Source: Scyliorhinus canicula
Taxonomy: Eukaryota
Length of the DNA: 64,000 nucleotides
Reading direction: 5' to 3'
NCBI RefSeq assembly: GCF_902713615.1
Contig: NC_052158.1
Span: 37,935,729 to 37,999,728 of the forward strand
The notes below the pieces were generated by a model. That model was given only the letters and a program-made list of their open reading frames with translations, was not told the DNA's origin and did not search any database. Positions 18,301-60,675 of the stretch are shown in pieces. The first letter of the stretch is position 1; every line of letters begins with the position of its first letter. The translations under genes were made by a program, and so were the position numbers.

Positions 18301-18431
18301 TCCCGGAGGAATCCCACGCTGACACGGGGAGCACATGCAGACTCTGCACAGACAGTCCCAAGCCGGGAATCGAACCTGTGACCCTGTCCCTGTGAACCAA
18401 TAGTGCTAACCACTATGCGACCGTGATGCCC
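18301..18431 (-). mobile_element. HE1-type SINE 5' fragment overlapping the GPCR stop codon
   Basis: The - strand reads GGGCATCACGGTCGCATAGTGGTTAGCAC, the HE1 head, followed by B-box GGTTCGATTCC. Confidence 0.8.
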
Positions 18432-35386: not shown

Positions 35387-35390
35387 TTAC

Positions 35391-35412
35391 TGGTGACTCT
35401 GATGGGATTCGA
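35391..35412 (+). promoter_or_regulatory. Primer binding site, probably tRNA-Arg(UCU)
   Basis: TGGTGACTCTGATGGGATTCGA, 4 nt after the LTR; close to the complement of the vertebrate tRNA-Arg(UCU) 3' end (TGGCGACTCTGGTGGGATTCGA, recalled from memory). Confidence 0.7.
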
Positions 35413-35704
35413 CATAGAAGTGGCTTTGTCACTCTGAGAGAACCCAAATTTGAATCAGAATCCAATTGGAAAAAGAAAAACCACAAGCGTAAGACCAATA
35501 TCGATCAAACACCAAATTTGGGAAGTGAGTTATTTGCATGCGTGCTAACAAGGGATACAGGTAAACTTGATAGCTTTTGTTGCGTAACTGTCTGGAGTTT
35601 GGTAGGCCGGAAAATAGCGTGAGCCGTTCCCATGTTTACATCACCACTTTATTCCCCGCTGTTCCAAATTCAGTAGAAACCCAGAGTTTGCAATAGAATT
35701 GGAA

Positions 35705-38352
35705 ATGAAGGCAATGGAACGCCTTATCAAACCCCAGGAATTCGAGGTCGCAGCGAACAGTAGAATAGGGCACTGTCCCATTTGGGATGAGTAAATTAGA
35801 AAATATCTCAAAAGGAAAGGATGGCCCTTTGTACTGAATTTTGAGCAAACGACGAAACAGGTCCCGGAAGTAAAGGGCATATTTGGTGGTGTAACCTGAC
35901 AGAGACTCATAAGAAAAGCTTAGGGAAAGCTCGTAAGCCGATGGCAATCGTGTCCTGCTTGGCACAATTGCGAGGCACAGAGGAGGTCGTGAGGACGCTC
36001 TGTAGAGAGATTGAAGAGATAAATAAGAATAGTGCGGGAGGTGTGACTGAGTAATAGAAAGTTAACAGCGAACTGACAGAGCAGTTAGCGGTGAAGGACA
36101 AGGAGATGGCAGATGTCAAACGGTCACACCAATATTGTCTCGCCCATTTAAGTAGCTTTCAGTCGCAATATGACAAGGCCTGCCAAGACAGGCAGTGCGC
36201 GGTGTTGGTAAGAGAAGAAATAGAACACCAATTTGAGCAATTACAGAAACAATCTAATGATGTATAAGCAGCCCTACGAGCACACCACAGTTCCAAGACG
36301 GAACAAAGGCAGAGATCAGTGGACCACACTAAATACTGACAGCAAATTGCAGACATGCGATCCATGCTTTCTGTACAAAATGGATTCCAGAATACATTCG
36401 GACCCCAGTTAGACCAAGAAAATACCCCCGATTGGCATGAGTTAAATAAGACTGCCCATAGATTGGATTGGATTGGATTTGTGTATTGTCACGTGTACCG
36501 AGGTACGGTGAAAAGTATTTTTCTGCAAGCACCTCAACAGATCATTCAGTACATGGGAAGAAAAGGGAATTGAACAGAATTCAAGAAAATACATGAGAAT
36601 ACATAATAGGGAAATACAATATATACAACGTACATAATAAGCAATGGCATCGGATGAAGCAGACATGGGTGTAGGGTTAATGAGGTCAGTCCATAAGAGG
36701 GTCATTTAGGAGTCTGGTGACAGTGGGGAAGAAGCTGTTTTTGAGTTTGTTCGTCCGTGTTCTCAGACTTCTGAATCTCCTGCCCGATGGAAGAAGTTGG
36801 AAAAGTGAGTAAGCCGGGTGGGAGGGATCCTTGATTATGCTGCCTGCTTTCCCCCGGTAGCGGGAGGTGTAGATGGAATCAATGGATGGGAGGCAGGTTC
36901 GTGTGATGGACTGGGCGGTACTCACGACTCTCTGAAGTTCCTTGCGATCCTGGGCCGAGCAGTTGCCATACCAGGCTGTGATGCAGACCGATAGGATGCT
37001 CTCTATAGTGCATCTGTAAAAGTTGGTAAGGGTTAATGTGGACATGCCGAATTTCCTTAGTTTCCTGAGGAAGTAAAGGCGCTGTTGTGCTTTCTTGGTG
37101 ATAGCGTCGACATGAGTGGACCAGGATAGATTTTTGGTGATGTGCACCCCTAGGAATTTGAAACTGCTCACCATCTCTACCTCGGCTCCGTTGACGCTGA
37201 CAGGGGTGTGTACAGTACTTTGCTTCCTATAGTCGATGACCAGCTCTTTAGTTTTGCTGGCATTAAGGGAGAGATTGTTGTCGCTGCACCACTCCACTAG
37301 GTTCTCTATCTCCCTCCTGTATTCGGACTCGTTGTTATTCGAGATCCGGCCCACTATGGTACCATATGGCACCATAGATATGTACATGGCACATGTACTC
37401 AGGACAAACCACAGAAAAGGAAAGCACTCCCACCCCCGACTGCACAGGCAGAGCACAAGACCATGAACACTGTCACCACACAGCGCAGGGCCACAACAAA
37501 TGGAGAACCAGATTTTCTGTCAACCACCCCATTAACAGTAACTCAATTAAGGGATGCATGCGATAAGATTACACTGTTCCTACGCACATTGGACCCACAC
37601 CATTATTTTGCAAGAGTAAAACAACTGCGACCATGTACGGACTGTATCAAAAAGAGCAAGTGAAGCTCGCAATTCTGAGCCGCGACCCCTTAGTCGTGGC
37701 AGCCCTTCCCAACCGACAGAATGTAGGAGGAGGCACCCTCAAAGAAATGCGTGCAGCCATCCTAGATGCGATCGGCTACAATAAATGAGACACCGTAGAA
37801 GGCCGAAACAAATGTAGGCAGAAAATCACAGAGCACCCCACAGCATTTGGTGGACGCCTGTGGATTCATTTCACAGCGGTATTCGGAGTTATTCCGCGCC
37901 CATTTGACCCAGACAATATGGCCAAATGGAATCGAATCCTAGTCTCTCCCGCAACAGAAGTAGGACAGAGAGCTTGCGCAAATTGCGACCCCTCAGATGA
38001 GGCCCACAATGAGAAATGTGCACTAAAGAGATTGTCCCGAGCTTGGGAACAGTCCATGCAGGGAAAATCTGCTGACGGGAAAGCAGATGAAGAGCAGCCA
38101 GATTCTAACATGCATCCAGTGTGGACGCAGCAGAACCACGTATGGGTAAATGAGGGAAGAAATAGCCCACAGCAGCCTAAATCCCACGAATGTTACAATT
38201 GCAGACAATTAGAACATTATGCATGAGAGTGCAATGCGCCCCTGAAACAGAAGCAAAACCAAAAGGCAAACACCCTGGATAAGAATAGGGCCAAGCCCAT
38301 CCATAGTGTTTGCGCCCGTTCCGATAACGCAAATATGAAATGCACCGATTGA
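35705..38352 (+). pseudogene. gag: gag of copy A (degenerate, split by Rex1)
   Basis: Collinear with copy B gag (PMAIVSCLAQLRGTEEVV, LSVQNGFQNTFG, CYNCRQLEHYA.EC knuckle); multiple stops. Confidence 0.8.
36464..37371 (-). mobile_element. 5'-truncated Rex1/Babar LINE inserted in copy A gag
   Basis: ORF 36686-37456 reads NNLSLNASKTKELVIDYRK..AQQRLYFLRKL; (CAATC)n tail; TSD CCATAGAT at 36456-36463 and 37372-37379. Confidence 0.88.
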
Positions 38353-41300
38353 CAGTGTTCAGACCCCCTAACCTGGGTCTGCGACACCCTTTGGGCCAAG
38401 TCCAGAAGACTGGTAGTGGCAAGCTCAGTCCGGGGACAACCCATAGAATTTATTTCATAGAACATAGAACATAGAACATAGAACAGTACAGCACAGAACA
38501 GGCCCTTCGGCCCTCGATGTTGTGCCGAGCCATGATCACCCTACTCAAACCCACGTATCCATCCTATACGAGTAACCCAACAAACCCCCCCCCTCCCTTA
38601 ACCTTACTTTTTAGGACACTACGGGCAATTTTTTTCATGGCCAATCCACCTAACCCGCATATCTTTGGACTGTGGGAGGAAACCGGAGAACCCGTAGGAA
38701 ACCCACGCACACACGGGGAGGACGTGCAGACTCCGCACAGACAGTGACCCAGCCAGAAATCGAACCTGGGACCTGGAGCTGTGAAGCATTTATGCTAACC
38801 ACCATGCTACAGTGCTGCCCACTAATGCTACTGTGCTGCCCACAGGAGTGCCCCGCACCACGTTCAATTCAACCAAAATATTTCAGCAATACACATGGCC
38901 CACCACAGACACCATTACTCTCCGCGGTTTTACAGGGCACTTGCAGCAGGGACGCATTACAGTCCCGGTAGCGATTCAGATAGGGAACATTAAAACCAAA
39001 CACCCCGTACTTCTAGACGATCTATCCCAGACAACCGAACACATTTTAGGTATAGATTTTATGAGCTCCCACAATCTATCGTTCGATCCCCTAAACAAAT
39101 GTGTGTGGAAAATGGCTAAGGCAGCATGAGAACCCACCACGCTCACAGTTGGAGACTACGCACACAGAATTAGTGCAGTAGGAGACTTCTGGTTTGCCCC
39201 TCGAGCCATTAGTCAGCACAGAGAAGTTAGGGACATTTTGCAACGACACAAAGCAGCATTTGCCCAGTACAAGCACGACTGTGGCAATATCGCTGGCTTA
39301 GTAAACATTACAGCTCCCGACCCCAAACTCCAAAAGCAGTAAGGTTTTCCCAAAGAAACAGATCAAGAAATCTGAAAGGTTATCCGGAGTTTGCTTGACA
39401 AAGGCGTACTCCGTTCAGGAGCCTCAACAAACAATGCACCAATTTGGCACGTCAGGAAACCCAATGGATCATGGCGACTGACCATCGATTATCAGGAAAT
39501 AAACAAAGTATTCTCAATAGCGGCCCCCACCGTAGCCAGGAGTCCCGAGACAATGCTAAAACAGGGACTCCAGTCAAAAGAATCTCTCGGTTTTGGACAT
39601 TAGCAACGACTTTTGGTCCCCTCCATTGTATAATGCGTGCCAATATAAATTTGCTTTCACCTTCCAGGGACAGCAATACACGTGGACGTACCTTCCACAT
39701 GGCGTACACAACTCCCTCTCCATTTTCCAGTGACAGCTGGCGAATGGGTTAGCCAAATCTTTCCGACACGATTGCCTTGTCCAATATGTTGATGACTTGC
39801 TTCTACAGACAGACACTAAGGGAGAGCATATTTCGCTTCTCACAGAACTATTAGAATTCCTTTAACAAATTAGATGTAAAGTGAAGCCCAAAACGGCCCA
39901 GATTCTCCAGGAAAAAGTAATTTACTTTGGAAAAGTCATCACCCATGGCGGACGCGAGATCGAGGAGAAATGCATCGACTCCATTGTCACATTACCCCTG
40001 CCCCATAATGTCACAGCCCTCCGGTCATTTCTCGGACTGGTTGGCTACTGTAGGATCACATTGACGGTTTTGCCACAAAGGCAGCGCCCCTTTCCGAACT
40101 CCTAAAGAAGCAAGCATCATGGGAATGGCTTCCACAGCACACGGATGTCGTGGATGCATCAAAACGAGCCCTCAGCACAGCCCCCACATTACAGGTCCCA
40201 GATCCACTCTCCTCATACGCAATTGAAGTTACAACCTCCGACCGAACCCTTTCGGCCGTGCTCCTCCAAGAATGACACGATCGTTTAGGACCTGTAGCAT
40301 AGGCCTCAGGAGTACTTGATCCAGTAGAGCAAGGATTTTCTGCCTCCGAAAGGCACCTGCTTGCAGGTTTTTAGGCAGTTCAATAGTTCGCCTACATTAC
40401 ATGACTCAACCCCGTAACCATTTTAATTGAGCACACCCCAACCCAACTTCTTCCAAATGGTAGACTAAAGGATGACAGAGTCAGCCAAATTCGCGCCACC
40501 CAATGGACCCTTATCTGACAGGGACGGGACATTACAGTTAACAGTGCAAAAACACACACTTTCCTCGCAGACAATTTACACTATGCCAACACCCCACATG
40601 CATGTGAAATCATCTCCACCAAGCACAATATAGGACCCTTTGGACGAAAGACAGCCTCACCTGAAACCAGGTACTACACCCCAGAGACACCAGCCCACAG
40701 ACATAGGCACACTCCTAAAGATTTATGTGGATGCCTCCTCCACAGTGTTGAACGATAAGAGGATTACCGGTTGCGGTATATATGTAGAGGACACAGAAGG
40801 ATGCATGTTAGAGGAGATATCCTTGAAACTGCCTGGACATCTAGGCTCACAGGCAGCTGAACTAGCAGCCGTAGTGTATATTGTAGAGCACCCTGACTCG
40901 TTCCCGACCCCAGCTGACATATATTCCGACAGTCTATATGTCTGTAATAGTTTAACAGAATTCCTACCCCTGTGGAAATCTAGAGGTTTCGTTCACGCAG
41001 ATGGAAAAACCACCACCCTCAGCCCCATTACATCAGCATAATCTAAGGGCAGCTCAAGATCGAAAATATGGTATTATCAAAGTTTGTAGCCAGCATTGTT
41101 CTCCCTGCCACCCCCCCCCCCTCCCCACCCCCACCCCCGCCACTCCCGGTAACGTTAAGGCAGACGCTCTAGCAAAGGCAGGTTCCAGACACGGTCACTT
41201 TTGGAATCCCCCTAGAGTGCCCCTGTACACGCGGTCCAAGACTCACAGACCAAAATTCAGGATCTAGCTCAGGCCCAAAAGGAAGACGCTCAGCTCAGGG

Positions 41301-42368
41301 AAGTTTTAAAACACAACTTCCCAGCCCCTTATGATAAATACAAGAACACATTGACGACATATGACGGTGTAATTTTAAAAGAAGGTATTTATGTGGTCCC
41401 CGCCCATGACATAAACCAATTTATCTGCCAATTACCATTAGAGCCATGGATATCAAGGCGTGGAAGCAACCCTCGGCCACCACAGACCTCTCTGCTGGTG
41501 GCCAGATTCGAAATCCAATGTAACGCATTACATGGAAAACTGTTAAATGTGCTGCCAGAACAATCCAGACAGATATGCAAGGAAAGGTCAGCTTAGCCAC
41601 ACAGCTCCATTAATTGCCCCTGGACGAATTTGCAGATTGATTATATAGGACCCCTACCCCACTGCGAGAATCGTTTTAAGTATGTGTTGGTGGTCATCGA
41701 CACTTTCAAAAAAATGGGTGGAAACTTTCCCATCCAGAACGAACACGGCTAAAGCGAAGCCATGATGCTCACTCAGCATACCTTTACAAGGTGGGGTCTT
41801 CCCCACAGCATAGAATCAAAGCAAGGGTCATATTTTATAGGACGAGTGATAAAAAACATCATCACAATTTTCGGAAGCAAACAAGAATTTCACATTGCAT
41901 ATCACCCCAATCAAGCGGAATAGTTGAGAGAATGAATAGGACACTAAAAGCAACCCGATGGAAAATGGTGCAACAGCACAGTAGCACCTGGGACACAGTT
42001 ATCCCCTTTGCACTAATGTTCATAAGGAACAAGGTATCCACGTCGACAGGATACACCCCTTACACCCTCATGACCAGACGACCCATGAAGGGGACAGAAT
42101 ATTTGATAGGACTCGATTTGGCCAGCCTAACGGTCACTGCCCTCATCCATGAGAAAGCAGTTCAGGAGATTATCGATAATGTAAATACCGCCCATTTCGC
42201 TGCAGCTGTTAGGCTTGAGACACGAAAGAAGCAAAGTAAAGTTTGCTGTGACAAAACAGTACATGCCACAAAATTTGTAGTAGGACAGCAGGTTATGTCA
42301 TCACTACAGCAGCTCAGTTCATTCCTTTCCCCCAAATTTGCAGGACCCTACTACATTTTTGATAAAGT
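38353..42368 (+). pseudogene. pol: pol of copy A (PR-RT-tether-RH-IN, degenerate; IN C-terminus resumes at 55381)
   Basis: NNAPIWHVRKPNGSWRLTIDYQ, QYVDD, IYVDASS..SQAAELAA..IYSDSLYV, SGIVERMNRTLK, FAGPY. Confidence 0.85.
38456..38841 (-). mobile_element. HE1-type SINE inserted at the protease active site of copy A
   Basis: The insertion splits IEFI|(WD)|TG, where copies B and C read LWDTG. Confidence 0.85.
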
Positions 42369-42837
42369 TCATCTTGCAGGCTTGAACATCTTCCGAGGCC
42401 CTTGGAGACCTTTTGTACTGACCCGACCTTACCTCGGCGGCCTGGAAGACGATCGGGACCAACCGGAAGTGAAGCCCTGACCTCGATTTGGAGTCGACAC
42501 GGACCTCGGAGCTCCAAACCCGGCCTAACTACCGACGCCATTCCCCGGAGCGCCTGGCCAAGTCCTCAGAGCTCCCGACACGACCTCCGATGGCAAGACC
42601 TGTCCGAACGCGACTTCGAAAGACCCGCCCAGCGTCACGATCCAGAGAGACCCACCCAGCAACCCGACTGACCTGGTGATGGAAGAAAGAAAAATCTACG
42701 TGGAGGCCCGACCGGGCCTGCTTCAAGATCCGACCCAGGAGCGCCCAGGGAGGGTACAGACCATGGGACCCAGCCCAACCTGCCTCAGGAAGCCCCTGCC
42801 CATGACCCAGGACCCAGAAACGCCGGAGACAGCGCAA

Positions 42838-43802
42838 TGTAGCCATCAAAGATGGACACCAGTCTACAAAATGGAGAACCACAAAGAATGCCGGGAAAAA
42901 CAGGCATAGTAAGGACACACAGCTTGCAGAATCATTTAGCATTTTTCACGTACAAAACCGGTTTCAAGGCAGTTGCAGAAACTCAGCCAAAGGTGCAAAT
43001 AGGAAAGCGATCTGCATACTAATGAGGTGATACCGGCCCAGTCCCAGACACAATAGAAACGTTTTATGTATCAATCGATACTTTTCTATAGCTACCCAGC
43101 CAGGATGGTACCAAAGAAACCAGAACAATGACCCCTAAGAGCCGCCCCAGCCATCAAGAAACGACCCCAGGATAGGGGAGTTCAAAACGTATCAATCGGG
43201 AAAGACCCAATCGATGAGGGAACCGCCCCAAGGGGGCCTGGACCTCCTGGGACCTATAAAAAGAAGGTCCCGCACATGATTCTGTCTGTTGCATCCTGAC
43301 TCCGGCCTAGGCTGTTGCATCCTGACTCCGGCCTCCGACTCCAGCCTCCAGATCCTGTCTTTCATCACCGGCCGTTGAGCATCAGCCATCTATCAGTAAG
43401 TGCCCAAAAGAACGATCGCTACGTGACCCAGGCATTGCTTATACTCTTGCCGACTTTAATAACCAGAAGTTGCAGACCAAGAACGGGATGAAGGCTTTGC
43501 CCCCTGACCTTGCCCGTTCCTTTCTAGATAAGTATTTAGTCGTTTAATGGTAGAAATAAGTATGAGTCTTTTAGCGTGTGCATGAGTATTTATTATATTT
43601 GTTATAATGAACACTAATTGTTTGGACTTACTGATCGGTGTTTAGATTTATTGCTTTGAACTTGACCTTGATAACTTGTGACGGTGTCTCTTACGGCACC
43701 TGGCGACTCCAGAGCATAGATACAGTACAGAGCCAAACCAGTGTTAAGCACATGTCCTTTATTGGAGGCATGTTAATCACACTAACAGTAGAACGAGCAA
43801 CA
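42838..43802 (+). repeat. 5' LTR of copy B
   Basis: Direct repeat of 51709-52674; TG..CA ends; TATA (CTATAAAA near 43254); internal tandem repeat CTGTTGCATCCTGACTCCGGCCT x2. Confidence 0.95.
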
Positions 43803-43807
43803 TTTAG

Positions 43808-43831
43808 TGGCGACATCCTGACGGGACACGA
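43808..43831 (+). promoter_or_regulatory. Primer binding site of copy B (tRNA-Arg-like, bulged)
   Basis: TGGCGACATCCTGACGGGACACGA, 5 nt after the LTR end. Confidence 0.6.
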
Positions 43832-44115
43832 TTAGAAGTGGCACCCCCACTCCGTGAGAACCCCAGAAATTTGAATTAGAAATCTGATTGGAAAAAAAAG
43901 GAAAAATCACAAGTGGTCAAGGTGTTCAAACCATTAACGATAATTGGGAAGTGTGTTTTGTGCATGTGTACTAACAGGGTTGTAAGGCAAACTGAGAGCT
44001 TTTTTTGTTGCGACGAACTTTCAAGAATTTTTAAGCGGAACATAGCGAAAGCCTTACCCGTCTTTTAAAATATTACCTCAACACCCCCTGTTCCAAATTA
44101 AGACAGGAGGAGGAA

Positions 44116-45854
44116 ATGGCCATGCAGGCAACGGAACGCCTCATGAACTCAGAGCAGTTCTTGTTCGCAGCGACCAGCAGAGTAGGTCAGTTTCCCGTGT
44201 GGGAGCTGGAACTCCGCAAGTATCTGAAATGGAAAGGATGGCCCCTTTGGAATGAGTTTAGTATGAATGAGGAGACAGGTCCCGAGAGTATAGGACATAC
44301 TTGGTGGGAGAACCTCTCTCAAATTCATAAGAAAAATCCGAGTAAAGCACGCAAGCCGATGGCAATCGTGTCCTGCTTGGTACAGTTGCGAGGCACTGAG
44401 GAGGTCGTTCGGAAGCTCCGGGCAGAGTTTGAAGAGAGGAATAGAATGAGTAAAGTGGATGTCAGGGACATCGAGAAGGAAAACTTAGAAATAAGAGGGA
44501 AGCTGGCAGAGAAGGGTAGAGAGGTGGATGATGCCAAGAGGGCACATCAGTCGTGTCTAGCCCATCTGAGCAGTTCCCAGACCCAATACGAAAAAGCCTA
44601 TCAATATGTGCAACGTGCAGTCCTGATAAGTGAGGAATCGGAAAAGCAGGTAGAGGCATTGCAGAGGCAATGCTCTGACCTAAAGGCAGCTTTAAGAGCA
44701 CTCCATGCTGCCACTACTGAGCAAAGACAGAGCACAGTAGACCATGCAAAATGCAGAAAGCAGATTGCGGAGCTGCAATCGCTGCTTTCAGTGCAGAATG
44801 GGTTCCAAAGCACTTTTGGAACGCAGTTAGATGAGGAGAATGCCCCAGACTGGCAGGAACTGAGTGAGACACTGCAGCGCTATGTTCAAAGAACATGTGC
44901 AACAGCAGCGCAGCAGAAAAGGAAAGCACCCCAACACCCCACAGATCAGATAGCATCCGCACCTATGAACCCAGTCACCACCCAAAGAAAGGCAACCACA
45001 GACGGCGCACCCGATATCACCTACACCACCCCCTTAACTGTAACGCATCTCAGGGACGCGTGTGAGAAAATCACTCCATTTCTCCCCACCGCAGACCCCC
45101 ACCAATTTTTCGCAAATGTTAAAGTGCAGGCTACCACGTACGGCCTGGACGATAGAGAGCAGGTTAAGCTCACGGTTCTGAGCTTAGACCCATCCGTAGT
45201 AGCAGCCCTCCACGACCCATAGAACGTTGGAGGAGGCACACTAGAGGAAATGCACACCTCCATTTTAGATGCAATAGGGTATAACAGAGGAGACCCAGTT
45301 GAAAGACTAAATAAATGCAGACAAAAGAGAACAGAGCATCCCACAGCATTTGCAGGAAGGCTGTGGATCCATTTCACTGAAGTTTTTGGCGAATTAGACC
45401 GAGCGCATTAAACCGTGACAACATGGTTAAATGGTCGCGCACCATAATCTCCCATGCCACAGATGCAGGACAGAGTACTTGCAATAGTTACGACCACTCA
45501 GAGGAGGCCCATAACGTGAAACGGGTTCTGGAAAGATTGCCCCGCGCTTGGGAACAATCGGTTCAGGGCAAAATTAAAATAAAGACCCAAGATGAAGCTC
45601 AGGCTGCAGCGGATATTCAGGCAGTGAGAGCGCACCAAAACCCCGCATGGGTAAACAAAGGGAAGAACAGCCCTCCACAGAAGTCGCAGGAATGCTACAA
45701 CTGTGGTCAGTTAGGACATTTTGCTAAGGAATGCAATGCACCCCAAAGATCACAGAGAGGCCAGCAGACAGGCACTCTGAACAGAACTAGAGCGAAGCCT
45801 ATTCACAGTTTAGGAATACAGTCAGGACAGACCAATGTGGACAGAACGGACTGA
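44116..45854 (+). pseudogene. gag: gag of copy B (coiled-coil N-half, capsid, single CCHC knuckle); one premature stop (45220) and a frameshift (~45410)
   Basis: ORFs 44116-45222 and 45423-45854; MHR-like CRQKRTEHPTAFAGRLW; CYNCGQLGHFAKEC. Confidence 0.88.
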
Positions 45855-48800
45855 CGGTGCTCGGGCTCCCCCACTTGGGTCTGTGACACCCTCTGGGACC
45901 AATCCGGGAGGCCGGTAATCACAGCAAAGTTTCGAGGGAAGCCCTTAGAGTTACTTTGGGACACAGGAGGGTCCCGCGCCACAATTAATTCCACCACCAC
46001 GGCACAGGCAGACACGTGGCCGACCACATCCACCATTACACTCAGCGGTTTTACAGGACACTCACAGCAGGGACACATTACAGCCCTCGTAGCAATTCAG
46101 CTAGGGAACATCTCCACCAGACACACCGTTGTATTAGTTAATCTGCCCTGTACAGCAGAACACATAATGGGTATAGATTTCATGAATGCCCATAGACTGT
46201 CGTTCGATCCAGTAAACCAGTGTGCCTGGCGAATGGCAAAATCAGACAGAGCACCCGCTACTCTCACAGTAGGAGAGTATGCAAATTGGATTAGCGCAGT
46301 AGGCGACTATTGTTTCGACCCGACCACGCTTAGCACGGACAAACAGGTTAGGACAGTTCTGAATAAACACAGGACAGCATTTGCCAGTCACCGGCATGAC
46401 TGCGGCAGAATGACTGGACAAGTTCAAGTTACCGGACCTGACCCCCGACCACAGAAACAGTACCGATTTCCCCTAGAAGCAGAGGGAGAGATTGGAAAGG
46501 TTATAGATAGCTTATTGGAGCAAGGTGGACTTAGGACAGTAGCCTCGACCAATAATGCTCCTATTTGGCCAGTGAGAAAGCCCGACAGATCATGGCGTCT
46601 GACCATCGATTATCGGGAGCTCAACAAAGTAACCCCAGCAGTAGCCCCCATGGTAGCAACAAGTCCCGAGATCATGCTCAAACAGGGACTCCACTCCAAA
46701 TATTTCACGGTATTGGACATCAGCAATGGCATCTGGTCAATCTCATTGGCAAAGGCGTGCAAGTACAAATTTGCCTTCACATTTAAAGGACGGCAGTATA
46801 CGTGGACATGCCTCCCACAAGGATTCCACAATTCACCCTCCATTTTCCACCGACAGCTGGTAAATGGTTTAGCAAACTTTTCCCGCCCCGAATGTCTGGT
46901 ACTGTATGTGGACGACCTATTACTGCAGACAGAAACAAAGGCAGAGCACATTACGCTTCTGGCCGAGCTCCTGCAACTTTTAACCTCGATCGGATGCAAA
47001 GTTAACCCCAGAAAGGCCCAGATATTAGAAAACAAAGTGATGCATTTGGGTACAGTCATCACGCACGGCAAACGCGAGATCGAATTCAAAAGGATTGATT
47101 CGGTTGTCAAATTGCCCCTTCCCCAGAATGTTTCAGCCCTCCGGTCGTTTTTAGCACTGGTTGGTTACTGTCGGAACCATATCGATGGTTCTGCGACAAA
47201 GGCAGCCCCACTCTCAGACCTCCTTAAGAAAGGAGCGCCATGGGAATGGCTTCCGCAGCTGACAGAAGCTATGGAAGCATTAAAGAAAGCCCCCAGCGCA
47301 GCACCTGCGCTACAAGTCCCAGACCAACTCTCCCCCTATGCAATAGAGGTAGCGAGCACAGATCTGACCCTCTCGGCCGTGCTACTCCAGGAACGGCACG
47401 AGCAGCTAAGACCAGTGGCTTATGTCTCCAGACTTTTAGACCCCATCGAGCTAGGATTTTCAGCCTGCAAGAGGCACCTCCTAGCAGTTTTTTGGGCAGT
47501 TCAGTACTTCGCGTACATTACCGGACTCAATCCCATCACCATTTTGACCGAGCACACCCCCACACAGTTACTTTTAGATGGTCGACTGAAGGACGGTTCA
47601 GTGAGCCAGATAAGAGCAGCTAGATGGACGTTACTGTTACAAGGACGGGACATAACAGTTAAACGGACCAGGACACACACATTTTTAGCCGACAACCTCC
47701 AATATCCAGGACAGCCCTATGAATGCGAATTGTAACACCCCTACACAAAACAGGACCCTTCATAGCAAAGACACCCCCCAGAAAGATAGGGAATTCAAGC
47801 CAGAGCCCCCAGCACACAGACACATGTGACCCACTGAAAATATATGTGGACAGTTCATCCACAGTTTTAGATGGAGAACGCATCACTGGATGCGGGATTT
47901 ATGTTGAGGATGTGCAGAGTCGCGCATTAGAAGAAATCTCTTTAAAATTACAAGGACACTTATGCGTGCAGGCAGCAGAGCTCGCGGCCATCGCATACAT
48001 AGTGGACCACCCAGATTCGTTTCCCAGCCCGGCAGACATATATTCGGACAGTTTGTATGTCTGTAACAGTTTAACAGATTTTCTACCCCTGTGGAGGACA
48101 CGAGGTTTTGTCTCCGCAGACGGGAAGCCCCTTCCATCAGCCCCATGACTCCACCATATCTTAGACAAGGCAAAGGATAGGGCGTATGGCATAATCAAAG
48201 TTAGAAGTCACCATAGGTCACCCCCTCTGGAAATGTAAAAGCCGACACACTGGCAAAAGCAGGTTCCAGGCGAGGGCACTTTTGGACACCCCCAGCTAGC
48301 GCACCAGCCAGCGCCCCTGTGAGTGCAGTTCAGGTCTCACGACGGAAATTAAAGATTTAGTTGAGGCACAGAAACAGGATAGAGATCTCAGGGAGATTTT
48401 TAAAGGAAATTTTGTGCACCAATACGATAAGTTCAGACACGCTTTGACCACACATGAGGGTGTGATAATTAAGGATAAACTTTATGTGGTTCCGGAACAG
48501 GATAGGAATCAGATGATTGCCTTGTTCCATGACAGTCATGGACACCAAGGGATCGACCCGACCACAAGACACCTCAGGCAACTCTGTTGGTGGCCAAATT
48601 TAAGAAACGATGTAACAAATTACATCGAGAATTGCCTAATTTGTGCACAAAATAACCCGGAGTGGTACTCGAAAAAGGCACAACTTAGACATACTCGACC
48701 AGTTGATGGCCCCTAGACTAACCTCCAGATCGATATTATAGGACCATTCCCCCCTTGTAGGAATGGCTATAAATATGTTCTGGTCGTTATAGACACCTTT

Positions 48801-50083
48801 ACCAAATGGGTAGAGGCATTCCCCTCACAAACCAATACAGCTAAGACAGCTGCAAATATCCTGACCCACCACATCTTCACGAGATGGGGTCTCCCGAGAA
48901 GTATAGAATCAGATCAGGGATCTCGCTTCACAAGACGGGTCATGAAGAACGTTCTGACAATATTTGGCATTAAACAACATTTCCACATTGCGTACCACCC
49001 CCAGTCAAGTGGGATAGTCGAACGCATGAATCGGACCCTAAAATCGACCCTTAGAAAAATGGTTCAGGAGAACAATTCAACATGGGATTCAGTACTCCGA
49101 TTTGCACTCATGTTCATCTGCAACACGGTTTCATCATCCACAGGATTCACCCCATACACACTCATGACCGGAAGCCCTATGAAAGGTACAGAACTCCTTT
49201 TAGGACTGGACATGCTAGACCCAAAGTGACGGCCCTCACACATGAGAAGGCAGTCAAAGATTTAGTTGAGACTGTGAGGTCTGCACAGTTAGCAGCCGCA
49301 GTAAAATTGGGAAAAAGATGAAAACAAAGCACAGCTTGCTTTAATAAGAATGTACACCCCACAGAATTTCAGGTTGAACAACAGGTAATGTTATCTGTTT
49401 ATAACCCCAGCAGCTTTTTGGCACCTACATTTTCCGGCTCGTATTCAATTTCGGACAAAATTAGCCCCTCCGTTTACAGAATAAAATACCCCAACGGTAA
49501 GATTGCGTGGTTTCATATTAACCAACTGAAGATATATGGAACACAGTCTAACCACACACACCATGTCCTGCTAGACGCAGTAGAACATCTCGCCCCGACC
49601 CCTATAGACACATTTCCACCATCCCCCTCACAGACCAGTTCCTCATCGGACTCGCCCACGACTCTGTCCACTGACTTCAGACCACGCCCCGAAACGCCCA
49701 CAAGCTGCCACAGCAGAGACAGCGACACTGACTCAGACAATGAGGACAGCCACAGCACCCAACCCTACAGCCCCCACTGTAGCAACTACGACCCCGACTC
49801 CAGTGACCCCATGGTGGTCACCTACGTTAAACACCCAGACCCACCACCCGACCCCAACGACCCCAACAGTGCCCCATCAAACTTAGATACCACACTTTGG
49901 CACAGGGACAATTCATGGAGACTTGTCCGTAATGATGAGAGTGACCCCCAGTCACATAACGGACAGATCGCATGCCTGATCCATACAAGAGTATGGGATC
50001 CGGGAGAAAAGGAAGACTTGATGTCTGACTCCCGGTACGGCAACCCCTTTGTGACCCTGTTCACAGAGAGAGAGGAGAAGTGA
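45855..50083 (+). pseudogene. pol: pol of copy B: protease, RT, degenerate RNase H (tether), RNase H, integrase with long C-terminal tail
   Basis: LLWDTGGS (DTG 45960-45968), LPQGFHNSP, YVDD, IYVD.SS/AAELAA/IYSDS/GNVKAD, HDSHGH..CLIC, LQID/SDQG/VERMN. A few stops and frameshifts. Confidence 0.92.
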
Positions 50084-50973
50084 GGTGTCCAGATGATGTA
50101 AAAGAGGAACCACTTGAGGGAAGCGATATCCTTTCTAATGGAACCTGCACGTATGTTTTGTTTGTTTGTGTTTGTTTGTTGCTGATATGTTAAGGGTTTG
50201 ATTGGAGATCAGATCACAGTCTTTTCAGCTGAAAAACTTGTGACCGCCTGGCACACACGTTAGCTTGTCTGCAGAAACTTCTGAGAACTACTGTTAGATA
50301 TCCTCTGGTGAACCGACAAAGTTCACGACTTGTAATCTGTTTTCAGATGTTGGAGCACCTTGGCTCCTCCCTTGTTTTTCAGGTGCCCCTCTATTCTGTG
50401 AATAGAATCTGCAATTCCACGATGAATACATTCATACCCGTTCATTTCAGGTTGCTCAGGCAGTGGAGAAACGGCATTGAGGACCCGCCCTGTCTGAGAA
50501 CCCCTTTGGTCATCCTAGCTCGGGTACGGCACAGCATGCCTTACCTGGGGATCCCATACAAATCTTACCCGTAGCGGCCCATACGGAACTCATTCGGCCT
50601 TTTCGTTTGAAATTTGGTTTCATTTTTCTTGAGGTAGCCCTTCGGCAGCCATCCCACGTGCTATTTACATCCAGGAACATTCGGATGGTAAATAACAAAA
50701 CCTGCGAGACGGCTCGCAGTGGTAAAGTTGTTAGGTGTGCATCCGCTCCTAAATTCGCATTTGAAAAAAAAAATGAGGGGAGTCACAGGGTGTGACTTGG
50801 CCATTAATTTAATGGCCAATTGGAATGAGAGGACAGATACACTAACAGTACAGATATTAAACTGTGTATTGACAGATACTGTGCTTGATCCCATAGCTTT
50901 CGAACAGTCAAAGGAGGGTTCACGGCAAGGATCGGCCCTACAAAGGAAGAGAAGGAAGAGAACAAAGAAGACC

Positions 50974-51321
50974 ATGATGGAAGCCTACCTATTTATTTTA
51001 AATATTGTTGTATTTTTGCATGTTGAAGCAAATCATGTTTCCCCCACGACCCCCACCGTTAATGTTTCCCACACACCGACTTCTCCGTGCTCAGCACTGA
51101 TCAGTGAGGTTTAGACCTGGTGCACGAAATTCATGACCTGGTACTCGATGTCGTATGTGATTGAATCACTGTTGGTGATTGCAATTCTCTGCATCATAGT
51201 ACAGACCCTCAGGTTGAGGAAATGGAAAAGGAGAGCCTCCCGTTCCTGCCCCTCAACCATTTACGGAGCTCATTCCCCTATTTTCGGTTATCACCAATAC
51301 CCCCAACCCCTTGATGCATAG
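50974..51321 (+). pseudogene. Small type I transmembrane protein ORF in the env position (115 codons, one in-frame TAG at 51112)
   Basis: MMEAYLFILNIVVFLHVEA-NHVSPTTPTVNVSHTPTSPCSALISEV*TWCTKFMTWYSMSY-VIESLLVIAILCIIVQTL-RLRKWKRRASR..PIFG..; Kozak context accATG; homolog at 55869-56237. Confidence 0.8.
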
Positions 51322-51688
51322 GAAATGTATTTATAGCCATATGTAAATAAAAACGAGACACTGATTTATTATATTGTTCTGAACTCGACTGCCGAGTCAG
51401 AAAGTGACATGCACTGTGGTGTGAATGGATAAGACTTTAGAATGTGATGAAATGTTTAAAGTAAGATGAGAGTAAGAATTGTGATAAGTAGAGGTTCCCG
51501 ATTATTGGTAATGCATGTCCCCTTTGACATAGAGCCATGTAGAAAATGTGAGTTAAAATTTTCTTGCCATAGTTAAGGACAGAGTAGACGCCCAGGAACT
51601 TGCTATGGTCAGGGAACCCAAAAAGGAACCCAAAGGAAATCGAAGTTACATAGAAGAACCATACATAGGTGTCCTTCACAATTTCTCG

Positions 51689-51708
51689 TGAGGATCACAA
51701 GGAGGGAA
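51689..51708 (+). promoter_or_regulatory. Polypurine tract of copy B
   Basis: TGAGGATCACAAGGAGGGAA directly before the 3' LTR; the same motif lies at 56604-56623 in copy A. Confidence 0.8.
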
Positions 51709-52674
51709 TGTAGCCATCTAAGATGGACACCAGTCTACAAAATGGAGAACCACAAAGAATACAGGGAAAAACAGCCATAGTAAGGACACACAGGTTGCAG
51801 AAGCATTTAGCATTTAGCACGTCCAAAACCGGTTTCAGGGCAGTTGCAGAAACTCAGCCAAAGGTGCAAATAGGAAAGCGATCTGCATACTAATGAGGTG
51901 ATACCGGCCCAGTCCCAGATATAATAGAAAAATTTTATGTATCAATCGATACTTTTCTATAGCTACCCAGCCAGGATGGCGCCAGAGAAACCAGAACAAT
52001 GACCCCTAGGAACTGCCCCAGGCATCGAGAAACGACCCCAGGATAGGGGAGTTCAAAACGTATCGATCGGGAAAGGCCCAATCGATGAGGGAACCGCCCC
52101 AAGGGGGCCTGGACCTCCTGGGAACTATAAAAAGAAGGTCCCGCACATGATTCGGTCTGTTGCATCCTGACTCCGGCCTAGGCTGTTGCATCCTGACTCC
52201 GGCCTCCGACTCCAGCCTCCAGATCCTGTCTTTCATCACCGGCCATTGAGCATCAGCCATCTATCAGTAAGTGCCCAAAACAACGATCGTTACGTGACCC
52301 AGGCATTACTTATACTCTTGCCGACTTTAATAACCAGAAGCTGCAGACCAAGAACGGGACGAAGGCCTTGACCCCTTACCTTGCCTGTTCCTTTCTAGAT
52401 AAGTATTTAGACGTTTAATAGTAGAAATAAGTATGAGTCTTTTAGCGTGTGCATGAGTATTTATTATATTTGTTATATTAAACACTAATTGTTTGGACTT
52501 ACTGATCGGTGTTTAGATTTATTGATTTGAACTTGACCTTGATAACTTGTGACGGTGTCTCTTACAGCACCTGGCGACTCCAGAGCATAGACACAGGTAC
52601 AGAGCCAAACCAGTGTTAAGCACATGTCCTTTATTGGAGGCGTGATAATCACACTAACAGTAGAACGAGCAACA
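51709..52674 (+). repeat. 3' LTR of copy B
   Basis: Direct repeat of 42838-43802. Confidence 0.95.
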
Positions 52675-55600
52675 GCGCCCAGACCCGGATGCGCTGTAAG
52701 GTATTCCCGCGCCCGCAGAATGCCGGGACCCATCTGGATTGCAAACATGCCCCCCTTAAAACCCCGCTAACTCAACCAGTGCCCGGGACCCCGCCAGACG
52801 CTACCCGGATACGTACCCAGCACCCTGGACCCCGCTATCACCCTGGACCCCGCCATACGCAGCCACCTATCTTCCACAAGGGCAGACGTCTCCCATCAGA
52901 TCCTAGGATCATCCAGCAGCAGCCACCAACCGAGGAACCGAGGGAAACGTGTCGGTCTGCTGGTTAGACTGAAGCAACGTGGTTTCAAGACCCCCTCTCC
53001 CCAGCATGCTCCTGGCAAACATTTAAGCGATTGAAAACAAGCTGGATGAAAGTAACGCCAGACTTACCTTTAAGAGGAAAGTAAGGGACTGCTGTGTGCA
53101 CTGTTTCACAGAGACATGGCTCACCCCCGCCTCACTGGACTGTGCCTTAAAACCTGGTCTCAATTCACCGGGTGGACCGCACGGCATCATCAGGCAGAGT
53201 GAAGGGTAGAGGGGTGTGCCGACTCATCAGCTCCTCCTGGTGCTTGAATGTGGCGACACTGGGGACCTACTGCTCTCCAGACCTGGCATACCTGACCGTG
53301 AAGTGCTGCCCATGCTATCTTCCACCTGAGTTCAGTTCAGCCATTATCACAGCGGTCTACATCCCGCCCCAGGCAGAAGTGAGGAAGGCGCTGGACGACC
53401 TGTACACAGTTGTAAACAACTATGAAGCAGAACACACGGAGGCCTTGTTTATCGTGGCCCGAGACCAACAAGGCCAACCTCAAGAGTGTACTGCCAAAAT
53501 TCCACCAGCACATCTCCTGTTCCACCAGGGGTGACAACACTCTTGACCACTGCTACTCAAAAGTAAAGGGCGCCTACAGTTCCATCCCCCGACCGCACTT
53601 TAGGAAATCAGACCATAAGACAGTGCTCCTTCGCCCAGAATACAATCAGAAACTCAAGCGGGATAATCCAGCTAAGAAGGTTGTGCAGTGCTGGTCCAAG
53701 GGGACAGAAGAGCTCTTATGTGACTGCTTAGAGACAGTGAACTGGCCCATATTTAAGAACTCAGTGACCAACTTAAATGAGTATGCCACCACCGTCACAG
53801 ACTTCATCAGCAAATGTGTGGACGACTGCATGCCAAATAAAGCAGTATTTACGTTCCCCAACCGGAAACCATGGCTCAATCGCAAGATTGACTCTCTACT
53901 GAAGGATAGATCTGAGGTGTTCAAAGCAGACGACCCTGACCTATACAAAACATTCAGGTACGACATCCACAAAGCCATCTCAGATGCCAAGATAGAATAT
54001 CAAACCAAGCTAGAGTCACAGACAACGTGCCTCACTGACTACCATCCAGTGGCCCTGACTTCAGTCGTAATGAAGTGCTTCGAGATGTTGACCATGAAGC
54101 ACATCACTTCCATGCTCCTAGAACACCTTGATCAACTGCAATTCACATACCGTTGCTACCGGTCCACATTCGACGCCATTTCCCTGGCCCTACACTCATC
54201 CCTCGAGCATCTCGAAAACAAGGTTTCCTACATCAGACTCATATTTATTGACTACAGCTAAGCCTTCAACTCCATAATCCCAGCCAACCTCATGTCAAAG
54301 CTCCAAAACCTAGGACTTGGCTCTCCACTCTGCAACTGGATCCTTGACTTTCTGACCAACAGACCACAATCAGTAAGAATGAACAACAACACCTCCACCA
54401 CAATAGTCCTCAATACCGGTGCCCCGCAAGGCTGCATACTTAGCCACCTACTCTACTCCCTGTGCACACACGACAGCGAGGGAAAACTTGGTTACAGCTC
54501 CATCTACAAGTTTGCTGATGAGCTGGTTCTCGAATAACGACGAATCAGAATACAGGAGGGTGATAGAAAACCTACTGGAGTGGTGTAGCGACAACAATCT
54601 CTCCCTCAAAGGCAGTAAAACTAAAGAGATGGCCATTGACTTCAGGAAACAAAGTACTGTAAACACTTCCGTCAGCATCAACGGGGCCGAGGTGGAGATG
54701 GTCATCAGTTTCAAATTCCTCGGGGTACACATCTCCAAATATCTGTCCTGGTCCACCCACGTCGATTCTACCACCAAGAAAGCACAACAGTGCCTATACT
54801 TCCTCAGGAAACTAACGAAATTCGGCTTGTCAACATTAACCCTCACCAACTTTTACAGATGCACCACAGAAAGCATCCTATCGGGCTGCTTCACAGCCTT
54901 TTATGGAAACTGCTCGGCCCAGGACCGCAAGAAACTTCAGAGAGTCATGAAAACCGCCCAGTCCATCACACGAACCTGCCTCCCATCCATTGACTCCATC
55001 TACACCTCCCGCTGCCTGGGAAAGTGGGCGGCATAATCAAAGATCCCTCCTAACCGGCTTACTCACTCTTCCAACTTGTTCCATCGGGCAGGATATACAC
55101 AAGTCTGAGAACACGCAGTCTGAAACTCAAAAACAACTTCATCCCCGCTGTCACCAGCATCCTAAATGTATCTCTTATGGACTGACCACATTAACACTAA
55201 ACCCTGTATGCTTCATCCGATGCCAGTGCTTGTGTAGTTACAATGTAAATGTTGTGTTGCCCTATTATGTATTTTCTTTTCTTCCCATGTACTTAATGAT
55301 CTGTTGAGCTGCTCGCATAAAAATACTTTTCACTGTAAATCGGTACACGTGACAATAAACAAATCCAGTCCAATCAATCCAAGTCAGCACATCCGTACAT
55401 AAAATCACATAGCCGAATGGCAAATCTGCATGGTTTCACAAAACCAGCTTAAGTCTTATGGCACACAGAACATCCATTCACACCACATCTCACTTGGAGC
55501 AGCAGATGAACACGCCCCGCCCACTGACGACCTATTTCTACCCTCCCCCAACCAGTCCAGCGACCATTAGGTCGCTCTCCATATGCTATTTACATCCTCA

Positions 55601-55868
55601 AACACTGGCACGATACACTCACAGCATCGATCACACAGGCTGCGAGACTGCTCGCACTGCGACAGTATTTTCTTCTTGTATGTCTTGTCCCAAAATATTT
55701 CTTTTTTTTTTAAATGAGGGAGTCACAGGTGGTGACCAACTTTAATGGACAATTGATAATAAAGGACAGATATACGAGACCTTAAACAAGATAATAACAC
55801 ATACGCTTGTGTCCAGAGAAATCCAGAACCACAGAAGCCATAGGAAGACCAAGAAGGAAGAAGAGAAC

Positions 55869-56237
55869 ATGAAGACATACATCATGGTCGACATTTGGAT
55901 CTTCGCAGGATCCCTACATTTGCGCCCGGATGCAACCCCCCTGACTCCTACACCACAGGATGTGAATGTTTCCCATCCCTGCCACACAACACCTGGATAC
56001 AGCCACTGATACATCAACCTCGAGACAGCCACTGATACACCGCCCTGGTGTGACAAGTTAATCACCTGATATTCCCTGTCCTACATTGTTGAAGCACTGA
56101 TAGTCATTGCAATACTCTGCAGTGTCATCCAGACACCGAGACTTAGGAAATGGCGAAGGAAAGCCTCCCGCACTCCGGTATATTCCCTCAGACCCCCTAT
56201 TTTCGGACTTCAGCAAACCCCCACTCGCTTAAAGTGA
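55869..56237 (+). pseudogene. Small TM protein ORF of copy A (homolog of 50974-51321; two in-frame stops)
   Basis: MKTYIMVDIWIFAGSLHLRPDATPLTPTPQDVNVSHPC...PPWCDKLIT*YSLSYIVEALIVIAILCSVIQTPRLRKWRRKASRTPVYSPRPPIFG, all in one frame. Confidence 0.75.
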
Positions 56238-56623
56238 ATAAAATGCATCGCCTAACTTAGTTGTTTGTTCTAATAAAAGAAAGATTAAAAATCCTGTACT
56301 TGACCTCCAAGATACAGAAACATGTATTGCTGCTGTTGTATAGTTTATGCTGTTATAAATTATTTTAAGTGACTAAGGATAGTTTAGATAAGAATAGTTA
56401 GAGGTACCCGTGTTTTAATTGTAATGCATGCCTTAATGTCATAGTGCCCCATAGAATTTTATAATAATGTGTGCATATAAAGCAATTTAAGTCAAAGTTC
56501 CAATCCATAGGAAGAGTCGAGTGGAATTTGTCCTTGACTGCGGGTGCTCGACTTAAGCAGAGAACAAGGAAGACGCAGTAACATGAGTCTTCACGCTTCA
56601 CGTTGAGGATCACAAGGAGGGAG

Positions 56624-57438
56624 TGTTGACATCTGGGATGGCCACTTTCAGAATACAAAATGGACGCTCACAGAGAATGTAGGGAAATGTGAACAATGCA
56701 GACAACAAGCAGGCATAGTGCCTGAATATATATTTGGGAAGCAGTTACCAGACAGAATCAAAACTCTGGGTCGTTTAGCATATGGTGGCGCACATCCGAG
56801 GAACAATGGACTAACACTCAGGTATTTGATACTGTTGCAGACATCCCGGCGCCAGTACCCCAACCGAAATTCACAAACAAAGCAAGACCAACCTCCACCA
56901 CAGACACGCCGAGCCATCAGGGCACCCGCCCCTTCATTTTAAGATTGATAACAGTGATCGACTAGCTGCCCAATTAATTGGGACCAAGTTTAAGGTTCGC
57001 CAAAAAGCACGCAAAGCCCCTCCAAGTACAAGAAGGAACACCCTCGAGAGATTCGCTCTCTTTGATTTGCCTCTCAAGCTGGAGAGACCTATCCACCAGC
57101 ATCACAAGAAGCAAGTAGGTCCAATATCAACGCTCTCTCCCAGATGGACGACCTTAGCTGTTCTCCTGTTATCTCCTCGAACCCGACAACCTCAGATCCG
57201 AACAAAGGCCATTGTTCCTCTGACTAAGTGGGCACCCGAAGTTAAGTATAGACGTTAGCGTCAGAGATAGTTTAGTTTGTAGTACTGTTGTGCATGAGTA
57301 AATCTTACTGTGTGTATAAATAAATAGTATTTACTTTGAACTAACTAAGTGATGTCTTTGCTCTTTGATCGGTTATCGGGTTGAATCTTGTGTCGTTATC
57401 GAGAGATACCTCGCAACTCTGAAAGTACACATAATTAA
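56624..57438 (+). repeat. 3' LTR of copy A (3' end deleted)
   Basis: Homologous to 34514-~35328; preceded by the PPT; runs directly into mid-gag sequence. Confidence 0.85.
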
Positions 57439-60400: not shown

Positions 60401-60675
60401 ACTCCAGCCGACATCTATTCAGACAGCCTGTATGTCTGAAATAGTTTGACGGAATTCCTACCCCTGTGGGAAACAAGAGAATTTGGTTAAGCAGACGGAA
60501 AACCCCTACCATCAGCCCCATTACTCCGCCATATTTTACAGCAGGCAAAGGAAAGGAAATACGGAATTGTCAAAGTTCGCAGTCACCACCGTTCTTCCCC
60601 CCACTCGTAATATTAAAGCAGACGCCCTAGCAAAGGTAGGTTCTAGACATGGTTATTTTTGGAACCACCGTGAAT
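57439..60675 (+). mobile_element. LTR element copy C: internal fragment (gag CA-NC, PR, RT, tether, RNase H), truncated at both ends
   Basis: TQLWDACEKITPFLPTSDPHQFF, CYNCGQLGHFAREC, FLWDTGGS, LPKGFHNS, YVDD, VDGSS..SQAAELAA..IYSDSLYV. No integrase or downstream LTR. Confidence 0.88.

What the first reader, a model, noticed from the sequence alone, without database searches (positions are those of the whole stretch)
55869..56237. Second, divergent copy of the small TM gene in another LTR subfamily
Seen: same position (upstream of an identical PPT), similar length (122 vs 115 codons) and the same motif order. The ectodomain varies, including a short duplication of ACAGCCACTGATAC, while the TM and polybasic region are conserved with many synonymous differences. 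Inference: the small size is ancestral to both subfamilies, not a one-off env deletion, and the variable ectodomain with a conserved membrane core suggests function resides at the membrane.
Basis: partly seen in the sequence, partly recalled or inferred. Interest (0 to 1): 0.7.

Follow-up and report, generated by a model that had tools for sequence, protein, structure and literature searches.

The report
Catshark retrovirus tiny membrane gene
This is a dead copy of a real gene: an endogenous retrovirus family of catsharks has no envelope gene and carries in its place a gene for a ~115-residue membrane protein of no known family, kept under selection across subfamilies, which may give the element another way to pass between cells.

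Summary
The second copy is real and homologous, but it is a pseudogene: stops at codons 47 and 67; the first copy also has a stop at codon 47. It is the 3' gene of an older provirus (element C, split by a nested LINE). The 42-codon membrane core shows dN/dS 0.19 against copy A, like gag and RT (0.15), though nucleotide identity is no higher than in the flanks. Ten more loci in two Scyliorhinus species give stop-free relatives in at least three lineages, 44-58% identical between lineages; five run complete at 113-120 residues. All with a start Met share a signal-peptide-like start, an N-glycan site, one TM and a basic patch, behind a shared splice acceptor. Pol is closest to snakehead retrovirus (296 bits vs about 190 for foamy/MLV), but only 1.6 kb lies where that virus has a 1,134-codon env frame, and no Env similarity was found. 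Best guess: an Env substitute for cell-to-cell transfer, working like FAST/sORF2 proteins but not a member (no myristoylation site, probable signal peptide). Function untested.

The parts
55869..56237 (+). Small TM gene, copy C (pseudogene; 122 codons, stops at codons 47 and 67)
   Evidence: 75% identical to stop-free RefSeq model P0010
55869..55934 (+). Signal-peptide-like N-terminus (about 22 codons); cleavage inferred, no predictor run
   Evidence: hydrophobic stretch after Met in all 11 sequences with a Met; weaker in this copy
55965..55973 (+). N-glycosylation sequon in the Pro/Thr/Ser-rich ectodomain
   Evidence: at residue 29-33 in 11 of 11
55999..56038 (+). 14-nt direct repeat, units 26 nt apart; first unit out of frame and holds the codon-47 stop
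56046..56171 (+). Gap-free core: aromatic membrane-proximal segment, TM helix (about 56073-56129), polybasic patch (56139-56171)
   Evidence: 89 of 126 nt identical to A 51118-51243; dN/dS 0.19; one helix over residues 49-90 in the model of copy A
55800..55868 (+). Probable splice acceptor (about 55816-55818) and purine-rich untranslated leader
   Evidence: P0010 joins a host gene to this sequence 17 codons before the Met; the pyrimidine tract here fell below my threshold
56605..56623 (+). Polypurine tract, 18 nt identical to copy A's
56624..57437 (+). 3' LTR of element C, cut at its 3' end
   Evidence: 86.6% to 5' LTR, K2P 0.139
34514..35386 (+). 5' LTR of element C
35387..42369 (+). Element C leader, gag (LINE piece inserted at 36461-37353, minus strand) and pol up to the integrase C-terminal domain; decayed
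55380..55585 (+). Element C integrase tail resuming after the nested LINE; about 1.0 kb present in A (49639-50660) is missing
42370..55379 (+). LINE inserted in element C's integrase region, itself interrupted by element A; left edge approximate
42838..52674 (+). Element A: full-length provirus (LTRs 42838-43802 and 51709-52674, K2P 0.048; 4-nt target duplication), gag, pol with two RNase H domains, no env
50974..51321 (+). Small TM gene, copy A (115 codons, stop at codon 47); acceptor-like site at 50896
   Evidence: 68% identical to P0003

Best explanation
55869-56237 is a decayed copy of a genuine gene of an env-less, snakehead-retrovirus-clade endogenous retrovirus family of catsharks. SHOWN: homology, position, selection on the membrane core, stop-free relatives of the same size, no room for and no trace of env in the one full-length element. 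INFERRED: the gene is the terminal exon of a spliced subgenomic RNA. Its product enters the ER by a cleaved signal peptide, is N-glycosylated, and reaches the plasma membrane as a ~95-residue type I protein: a 35-50-residue mucin-like stalk, an aromatic membrane-proximal segment, one TM, a basic patch and a short tail. MECHANISM I COMMIT TO (inferred, untested): it stands in for Env by promoting local membrane contact or small fusion pores between a producing cell and its neighbour, so that Gag-Pol capsids pass directly, as insect sORF2 proteins are proposed to do. My odds: real selected gene 0.95; this copy dead 0.97; spliced terminal exon 0.85; topology 0.8; cell-to-cell transfer role 0.4.
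For: Core dN/dS 0.19, pN<pS in 2000 of 2000 bootstraps, codon-position identity 0.76/0.88/0.49; the two other plus-strand frames give pN/pS 1.2 and 2.6; gag 0.15, RT-RH 0.15, IN 0.08 between the same two elements at dS 1.2-1.6. Eleven RefSeq proteins (10 loci) from S. canicula and S. torazame match; four unrelated loci enter the sequence at the same point 22 residues before the Met. Sequon 11 of 11, 6-8 basic residues after the TM in 10 of 10 that reach it. Pol scores 296 bits against L001 (snakehead retrovirus by its RT and 3'ORF text) versus 191 foamy, 189 MLV, 110 Ty3. Pol stop to LTR is 1,626 nt in A versus a 1,134-codon env frame in L001. In one stranded oligo-dT run, reads of related copies are of one orientation and depth steps from 7 to 35 just after pol, with no such step in DNA contigs. 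Precedent: sORF2 genes lie downstream of pol in 7 of 22 lepidopteran consensus sequences (PMC11952523).
Against: No function is shown. FAST hallmarks fail: no Gly at residue 2 in 11 of 11; a probable signal peptide and a glycan site, which FAST proteins do not use (PMC3952855); one ectodomain Cys rather than a cystine pair; the membrane-proximal segment was no more amphipathic than its shuffles in 10 of 10. A TM followed by basic residues is common to most single-pass proteins; the Atlas look-alikes were generic host proteins, all under 0.9. No leader-to-exon joint was among the 15 of 80 joints shown, and the RNA step falls near 50.2-50.6 kb, upstream of the acceptor inferred at 50896. Only one complete element was examined for absence of env. 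The RefSeq relatives are stop-free by construction and say nothing on how many copies are intact. The tail was not significantly constrained between A and C (pN/pS 0.90).
Confidence: 0.4

Rival explanations
1. Accessory protein, not an Env substitute: a Vpu/M2/SH-like small membrane protein (budding aid, ion channel, or antagonist of a host restriction or immune factor) that the env-bearing ancestor already had and that stayed useful after env was lost and the element became an intracellular retrotransposon.
For: Snakehead retrovirus is a complex virus with small spliced ORFs of 52, 94 and 76 residues (PMC12193657). Signal peptide, glycan, single ectodomain Cys and a nearly invariant acidic residue inside the TM suit a channel or receptor-binding protein (comparison recalled, not tested). 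A second acceptor cluster at 50346-50450 hints at further accessory exons.
Against: No similarity to any frame of L001 (best E 0.08 among 171 frames of 30 or more codons). It is the only gene left in the env position and is constrained as tightly as gag.
Confidence: 0.32
2. Collapsed Env: one ancient internal deletion joined a signal peptide to the stem, TM and tail of Env; the stub was kept because it directs Gag to the membrane or aids budding.
For: Env slot, env-like acceptor and env-like order of signal peptide, aromatic stem, TM and basic tail.
Against: No Env hit among 1.84 billion proteins or among longer proteins (8000 candidates scored). The L001 Env TM region scored -1.0 bits, with 427 of 500 block shuffles as high or higher. 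L001's signal-peptide-like frame lies before gag, ahead of a donor-like site, whereas this gene has its own. No env Pfam family in six frames of the flanking spacers.
Confidence: 0.18
3. The conservation reflects a DNA or RNA signal (or chance), not a protein.
For: Both window copies have stops; ORF identity is no higher than the flanks.
Against: Strong third-position bias in this frame only; stop-free relatives with a conserved sequon and motif order. Two stops in 122 codons match the neutral decay of element C's RT (10 stops in 482 codons, 2.5 expected).
Confidence: 0.03

Closest known systems
Snakehead retrovirus (SnRV) clade of Orthoretrovirinae, incl. elephant-shark CmiERV lineage I
   Same: Closest pol among the references compared (296 bits, 48% over 211 RT residues); two RNase H domains; CCHC Gag; gag and pol in one frame across a stop; shark members known (PMC4422223).
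   Different: SnRV has a 1,134-codon env frame and a 3'ORF; CmiERVs were defined by having env. This family has 1.6 kb there and a ~115-codon gene with no similarity to any SnRV frame.
sORF2 proteins of MDG1-group and other insect Metaviridae (PMC11952523)
   Same: Env-less LTR element with a small single-TM protein, N-out, basic patch after the TM; sometimes downstream of pol.
   Different: Those are Metaviridae, 63-107 residues, mostly N-myristoylated, and unspliced in Drosophila; this one is in a retroviral lineage, has a probable signal peptide, a glycan site and a splice acceptor; no sequence link found.
Reovirus FAST proteins (p10, p14, p15, p22)
   Same: Size, one TM, small Pro-rich ectodomain, membrane-proximal aromatic segment, polybasic motif (PMC7830690).
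   Different: FAST proteins use no signal peptide or glycosylation (PMC3952855) and need a myristate or a cystine loop; neither is present here.
Lokiretroviruses and Odin retrotransposons
   Same: Dual RNase H; coiled-coil-rich protein 5' of pol; Odin also lacks env.
   Different: RT motifs match SnRV, not Loki (by eye); Loki Env is a large F-like glycoprotein and none was found in the one Carcharhiniformes genome screened; Odin is from sea anemones with no 3' gene reported.
Fish foamy-like ERVs, incl. catshark ERV-Spuma.0-Sca (PMC10699275)
   Same: YVDD-type RT; 4-nt target duplication; similar total size to ERV-Spuma.0-Sca (9.2 kb).
   Different: Foamy Gag lacks a Cys-His box, this Gag has one; the first 400 nt of the ERV-Spuma.0-Sca LTR do not resemble either LTR here (by eye).

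Membership tests
SnRV-clade endogenous retrovirus | Pol closer to SnRV than to foamy, gamma, lenti or Ty3 references | tested here: met
   296 bits vs 191, 189, 65 and 110 on the same phmmer scale; score comparison, no tree with outgroups
SnRV-clade endogenous retrovirus | LTRs, target duplication, PPT, gag-pol with tether plus second RNase H and integrase | tested here: met
SnRV-clade endogenous retrovirus | env gene after pol | tested here: not met
   1,626 nt between pol stop and LTR; no env family match
SnRV-clade endogenous retrovirus | Primer-binding site like SnRV's | tested here: inconclusive
   9 and 10 of 18 bases match L001's; primer tRNA not identified
FAST proteins | About 100-200 residues, single TM, N-out/C-in | tested here: met
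   size and TM; orientation inferred from sequon and basic patch
FAST proteins | Juxtamembrane polybasic motif | tested here: met
   6-8 K/R in 16 residues in 10 of 10 that reach it
FAST proteins | No signal peptide; TM is a reverse signal anchor; no glycosylation | tested here: not met
   hydrophobic N-terminus and sequon in 11 of 11; cleavage itself not predicted by a dedicated tool
FAST proteins | N-myristoylation or ectodomain cystine loop | tested here: not met
   Gly2 in 0 of 11; one conserved ectodomain Cys
FAST proteins | Amphipathic ecto- and endodomain helices | tested here: inconclusive
   11-residue membrane-proximal block not above shuffles in 10 of 10; weak test
FAST proteins | Causes cell-cell fusion | not testable with these tools
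   needs an assay
Insect sORF2 | Encoded by an env-less LTR element, same orientation as gag-pol | tested here: met
Insect sORF2 | Metaviridae host element | tested here: not met
   retroviral pol
Retroviral Env remnant | Sequence similarity to an Env TM subunit | tested here: not met
   short TM segments may be past detection
Lokiretrovirus | RT in the Loki clade and F-like Env | tested here: not met
   RT motifs differ (by eye); no Env

The most novel reading that the evidence does not exclude
A vertebrate retrovirus lineage (SnRV clade) lost Env and replaced it with an independently evolved minimal fusogen, a signal-peptide-bearing, glycosylated counterpart of FAST/sORF2 proteins, and has spread in catshark germ lines by direct cell-to-cell (possibly soma-to-oocyte) transfer long enough for its subfamilies to reach dS above 1.
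Probability: 0.28. Interest if true: 0.9.

Novelty: new variant of a known kind. Interest (0 to 1): 0.62.

Why it matters
Env-less ERVs are usually read as retroviruses that gave up infection. Here the env position holds a small membrane gene of no known family that was constrained as tightly as gag while subfamilies diverged to dS 1.2-1.6. If it transfers capsids, Env-independent spread would extend from insect Metaviridae to Retroviridae and add a new small-fusogen design. If it is an accessory protein, it is still a new retroviral membrane-protein family that points to a host interaction in sharks. Nine literature searches found no description; subscription papers, Repbase and Dfam were not searchable.

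Tried and rejected
Single-sequence homologue search at 63-202 residues: 2 candidates, no hit. Small gene in viral contigs and metagenome contigs: none; RT in metagenome contigs: none; RT as a single sequence in viral contigs: none. No whole genome held. Pfam: only sub-threshold TM matches. Fold search of a low-confidence model (pLDDT 64, pTM 0.31) in viral structures: 0 matches at E<=0.001. Atlas: best feature score 0.89, a lead only. P0007 (1,498-residue repeat protein, E 1.6e-5) dropped as spurious; P0009 left out of counts as the same locus as P0008. A longer ~180-210-codon frame starting upstream (copy A is open from 50773; database hits are 204-213 residues): rejected, because the hits' N-termini are unrelated host or LINE sequence and the pre-Met peptide changes frame between relatives. 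Identity with ERV-Spuma.0-Sca: rejected on the LTR start; its internal sequence was cut in the supplement and six motif searches found nothing. Resemblance to the SnRV Env TM seen by eye: not above shuffles. The frame control was misregistered and redone. No RNA holder was listed by the run search. Earlier scan findings: nothing in three look-ups. No complex prediction was run.

Full report
OBSERVATION. 55869-56237 runs from ATG to TGA over 122 codons and is homologous to 50974-51321 (115 codons; 48% amino-acid identity). Both end 368-369 nt before an identical 18-nt polypurine tract. Neither frame is open: copy C stops at codons 47 and 67, copy A at codon 47. The 14-nt repeat is present, but its units are 26 nt apart, are read in different frames, and the first contains the codon-47 stop.

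CONTEXT. Self-comparison gives a nested map. Element C starts at its 5' LTR (34514-35386) and runs through a decayed gag and pol to about 42369. A LINE interrupts its integrase region, and the full-length element A (42838-52674; LTR distance 0.048; 4-nt target duplication) sits inside that LINE. C resumes at 55380 in the same integrase domain, lacks about 1 kb that A has, and carries the small gene, the PPT and a 3' LTR (distance 0.139 to its 5' LTR). So the finding is the 3' gene of an older provirus of another subfamily. C's RT has 10 stops in 482 aligned codons, which predicts 2.5 in 122; two are seen, so the lesions fit neutral decay after insertion.

Nucleotide identity of the gene (0.67; core 0.71) is not above the flanks (0.73, 0.75; shuffled 0.60-0.62), but the flanks align only with many gaps. 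In the gap-free 42-codon core, identity by codon position is 0.76/0.88/0.49, pN/pS 0.32 (95% bootstrap 0.18-0.54), dN/dS 0.19. The other plus-strand frames give 1.2 and 2.6; the antisense frame sharing third positions gives 0.53, as expected of a shadow. Between the same two elements gag gives 0.15, RT-RH 0.15 and integrase 0.08. The N-terminal part also shows a bias (0.47) but its alignment is protein-guided; the tail does not (0.90).

RELATIVES. A two-sequence profile against 1.84 billion proteins gave 5 hits, 4 real; a six-sequence profile against longer proteins gave 8 hits among 8000 candidates scored. Together these are 11 RefSeq proteins at 10 loci, all from Scyliorhinus canicula or S. 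torazame. Five run from Met to stop in 113-120 residues; the others are cut or extended by the gene model. They fall into at least three lineages, 44-58% identical between lineages; P0010 is 75% identical to copy C and P0003 68% to copy A. All 8 relatives aligned hold a residue at each of the window's stop positions. In the 11 sequences with a start Met (9 relatives, 2 window copies) there is a hydrophobic N-terminus, a sequon at residue 29-33 (four different triplets), a stalk of 38-52% Pro/Thr/Ser, a Trp-Cys pair, and no Gly at residue 2; the 10 that reach it have 6-8 basic residues after the TM. These models are stop-free by construction, so they show that open copies exist, not how many. 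Most are host genes spliced onto the small gene: four unrelated loci enter at the same point 22 residues before the Met, and P0010 enters 17 residues before it, matching window position about 55817. This is indirect evidence for a conserved splice acceptor.

THE ELEMENT. Pol has RT, a tether, a second RNase H and integrase. The only viral contig hit by an RT profile, L001, has the RT and 3'ORF text published for snakehead retrovirus. A's RT-RH scores 296 bits against it, versus 191 for foamy, 189 for MLV and 110 for Ty3. L001 has a 1,134-codon env frame after pol; A has 1,626 nt, with no env family match in any plus-strand frame. The small-protein profile matches no frame of L001, and the Env TM region scores below most shuffles. 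Only one complete element was examined.

EXPRESSION. Four public runs of one organism were laid on 43803-57437 at 85% likeness; reads come from related copies, not this locus. In the stranded oligo-dT run, reads over A are almost all of one orientation, which under the usual protocol means sense RNA. Depth is 3-9 across pol and 18-35 from about 50.2 kb to the start of the LTR, with no matching step in DNA contigs. This fits a subgenomic RNA, though 3' bias contributes, the step lies nearer the acceptor-like sites at 50346-50450 than the one at 50896, and no leader joint was among the 15 of 80 joints shown. Depth over C's small gene was about 1, and its DNA contig depth about 300 against 5000-10000 for A; this is no copy number, but C-like sequence is scarcer or more distant in that organism.

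MECHANISM. Shown: a selected gene in the env position, dead in this copy. Inferred: a spliced terminal exon giving a signal-peptide-targeted, glycosylated type I protein of about 95 residues. I put 0.4 on a role in passing capsids between cells, by analogy with insect sORF2 (PMC11952523) and FAST proteins, because it is the only gene left where env was and is as constrained as gag. It fails FAST membership (signal peptide, glycan, no myristoylation site or cystine pair), so the claim is 'may work like', not 'is'. An accessory protein retained after env loss (0.32) and an ancient Env stub (0.18) remain open. The Vpu/M2/SH comparisons are recalled, not tested.

PAPERS SEEN. PMC11952523: part 2 of 9 and passages. 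PMC4422223: part 1 of 2. PMC7947760: parts 1-2 of 4 and supplement passages (file cut when stored). PMC10699275: passages and supplement part 8, sequences cut at 400 letters, so its internal sequence could bear on the claim of no prior description. Passages only: PMC5210030, PMC5512871, PMC9040795, PMC12945298, PMC12193657, PMC7830690, PMC3952855, PMC4977317. The original 1996 SnRV paper was not read. Nine searches found no report of this gene; repeat databases were not available.

VERDICT. Its function is open. Interest 0.62; 0.9 if it proves a fusogen.

Noticed in passing
RefSeq models P0006, P0008-P0014: Isoforms of several S. torazame host genes (SUGCT, B3GAT1-like, KIAA1958, CFAP36, PTGER3, HEPACAM2-like, a galectin-domain gene) end in the small-gene exon, so the acceptor is often captured by host transcripts and could add a TM anchor to host proteins.
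   Followed up: partly
window 50346-50450: Cluster of strong acceptor-like sites after pol in element A; the first is followed directly by an ATG and a 75-codon frame with no Pfam match; RNA depth steps up in this bin. Possibly a second accessory exon; the region is missing from C.
   Followed up: partly
window 50773 and about 55714: A short block starting with ATG is nearly identical in A and C, 155-200 nt before the small gene, after an A-run in A and a T-run in C; role unknown (upstream start, second PPT or splice signal).
   Followed up: no
window 42832-42839 and 52673-52678: Element A's left junction keeps two extra A bases between the 4-nt target duplication and the LTR's TG, the same two that follow the PPT at the 3' LTR; may reflect an unprocessed end.
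   Followed up: no
window 45852-45857 and 58254-58259: gag ends in TGA followed by CGG in frame with pol in elements A and D, suggesting stop-codon readthrough; L001 also has gag and pol in one frame.
   Followed up: no
window 57435-60664: C's 3' LTR is cut and joined to mid-gag of a third element (D), about 75% identical to both A and C, which ends in the second RNase H.
   Followed up: partly
window 44116-45219: Gag has a long coiled-coil-like region; no significant Pfam or PDB match.
   Followed up: partly
window 18406-19260 (minus): Intronless rhodopsin-family GPCR frame (Pfam 7tm_1, E 3e-18).
   Followed up: no
window 61292-61450: 79-nt tandem duplication, 87.5% alike.
   Followed up: no
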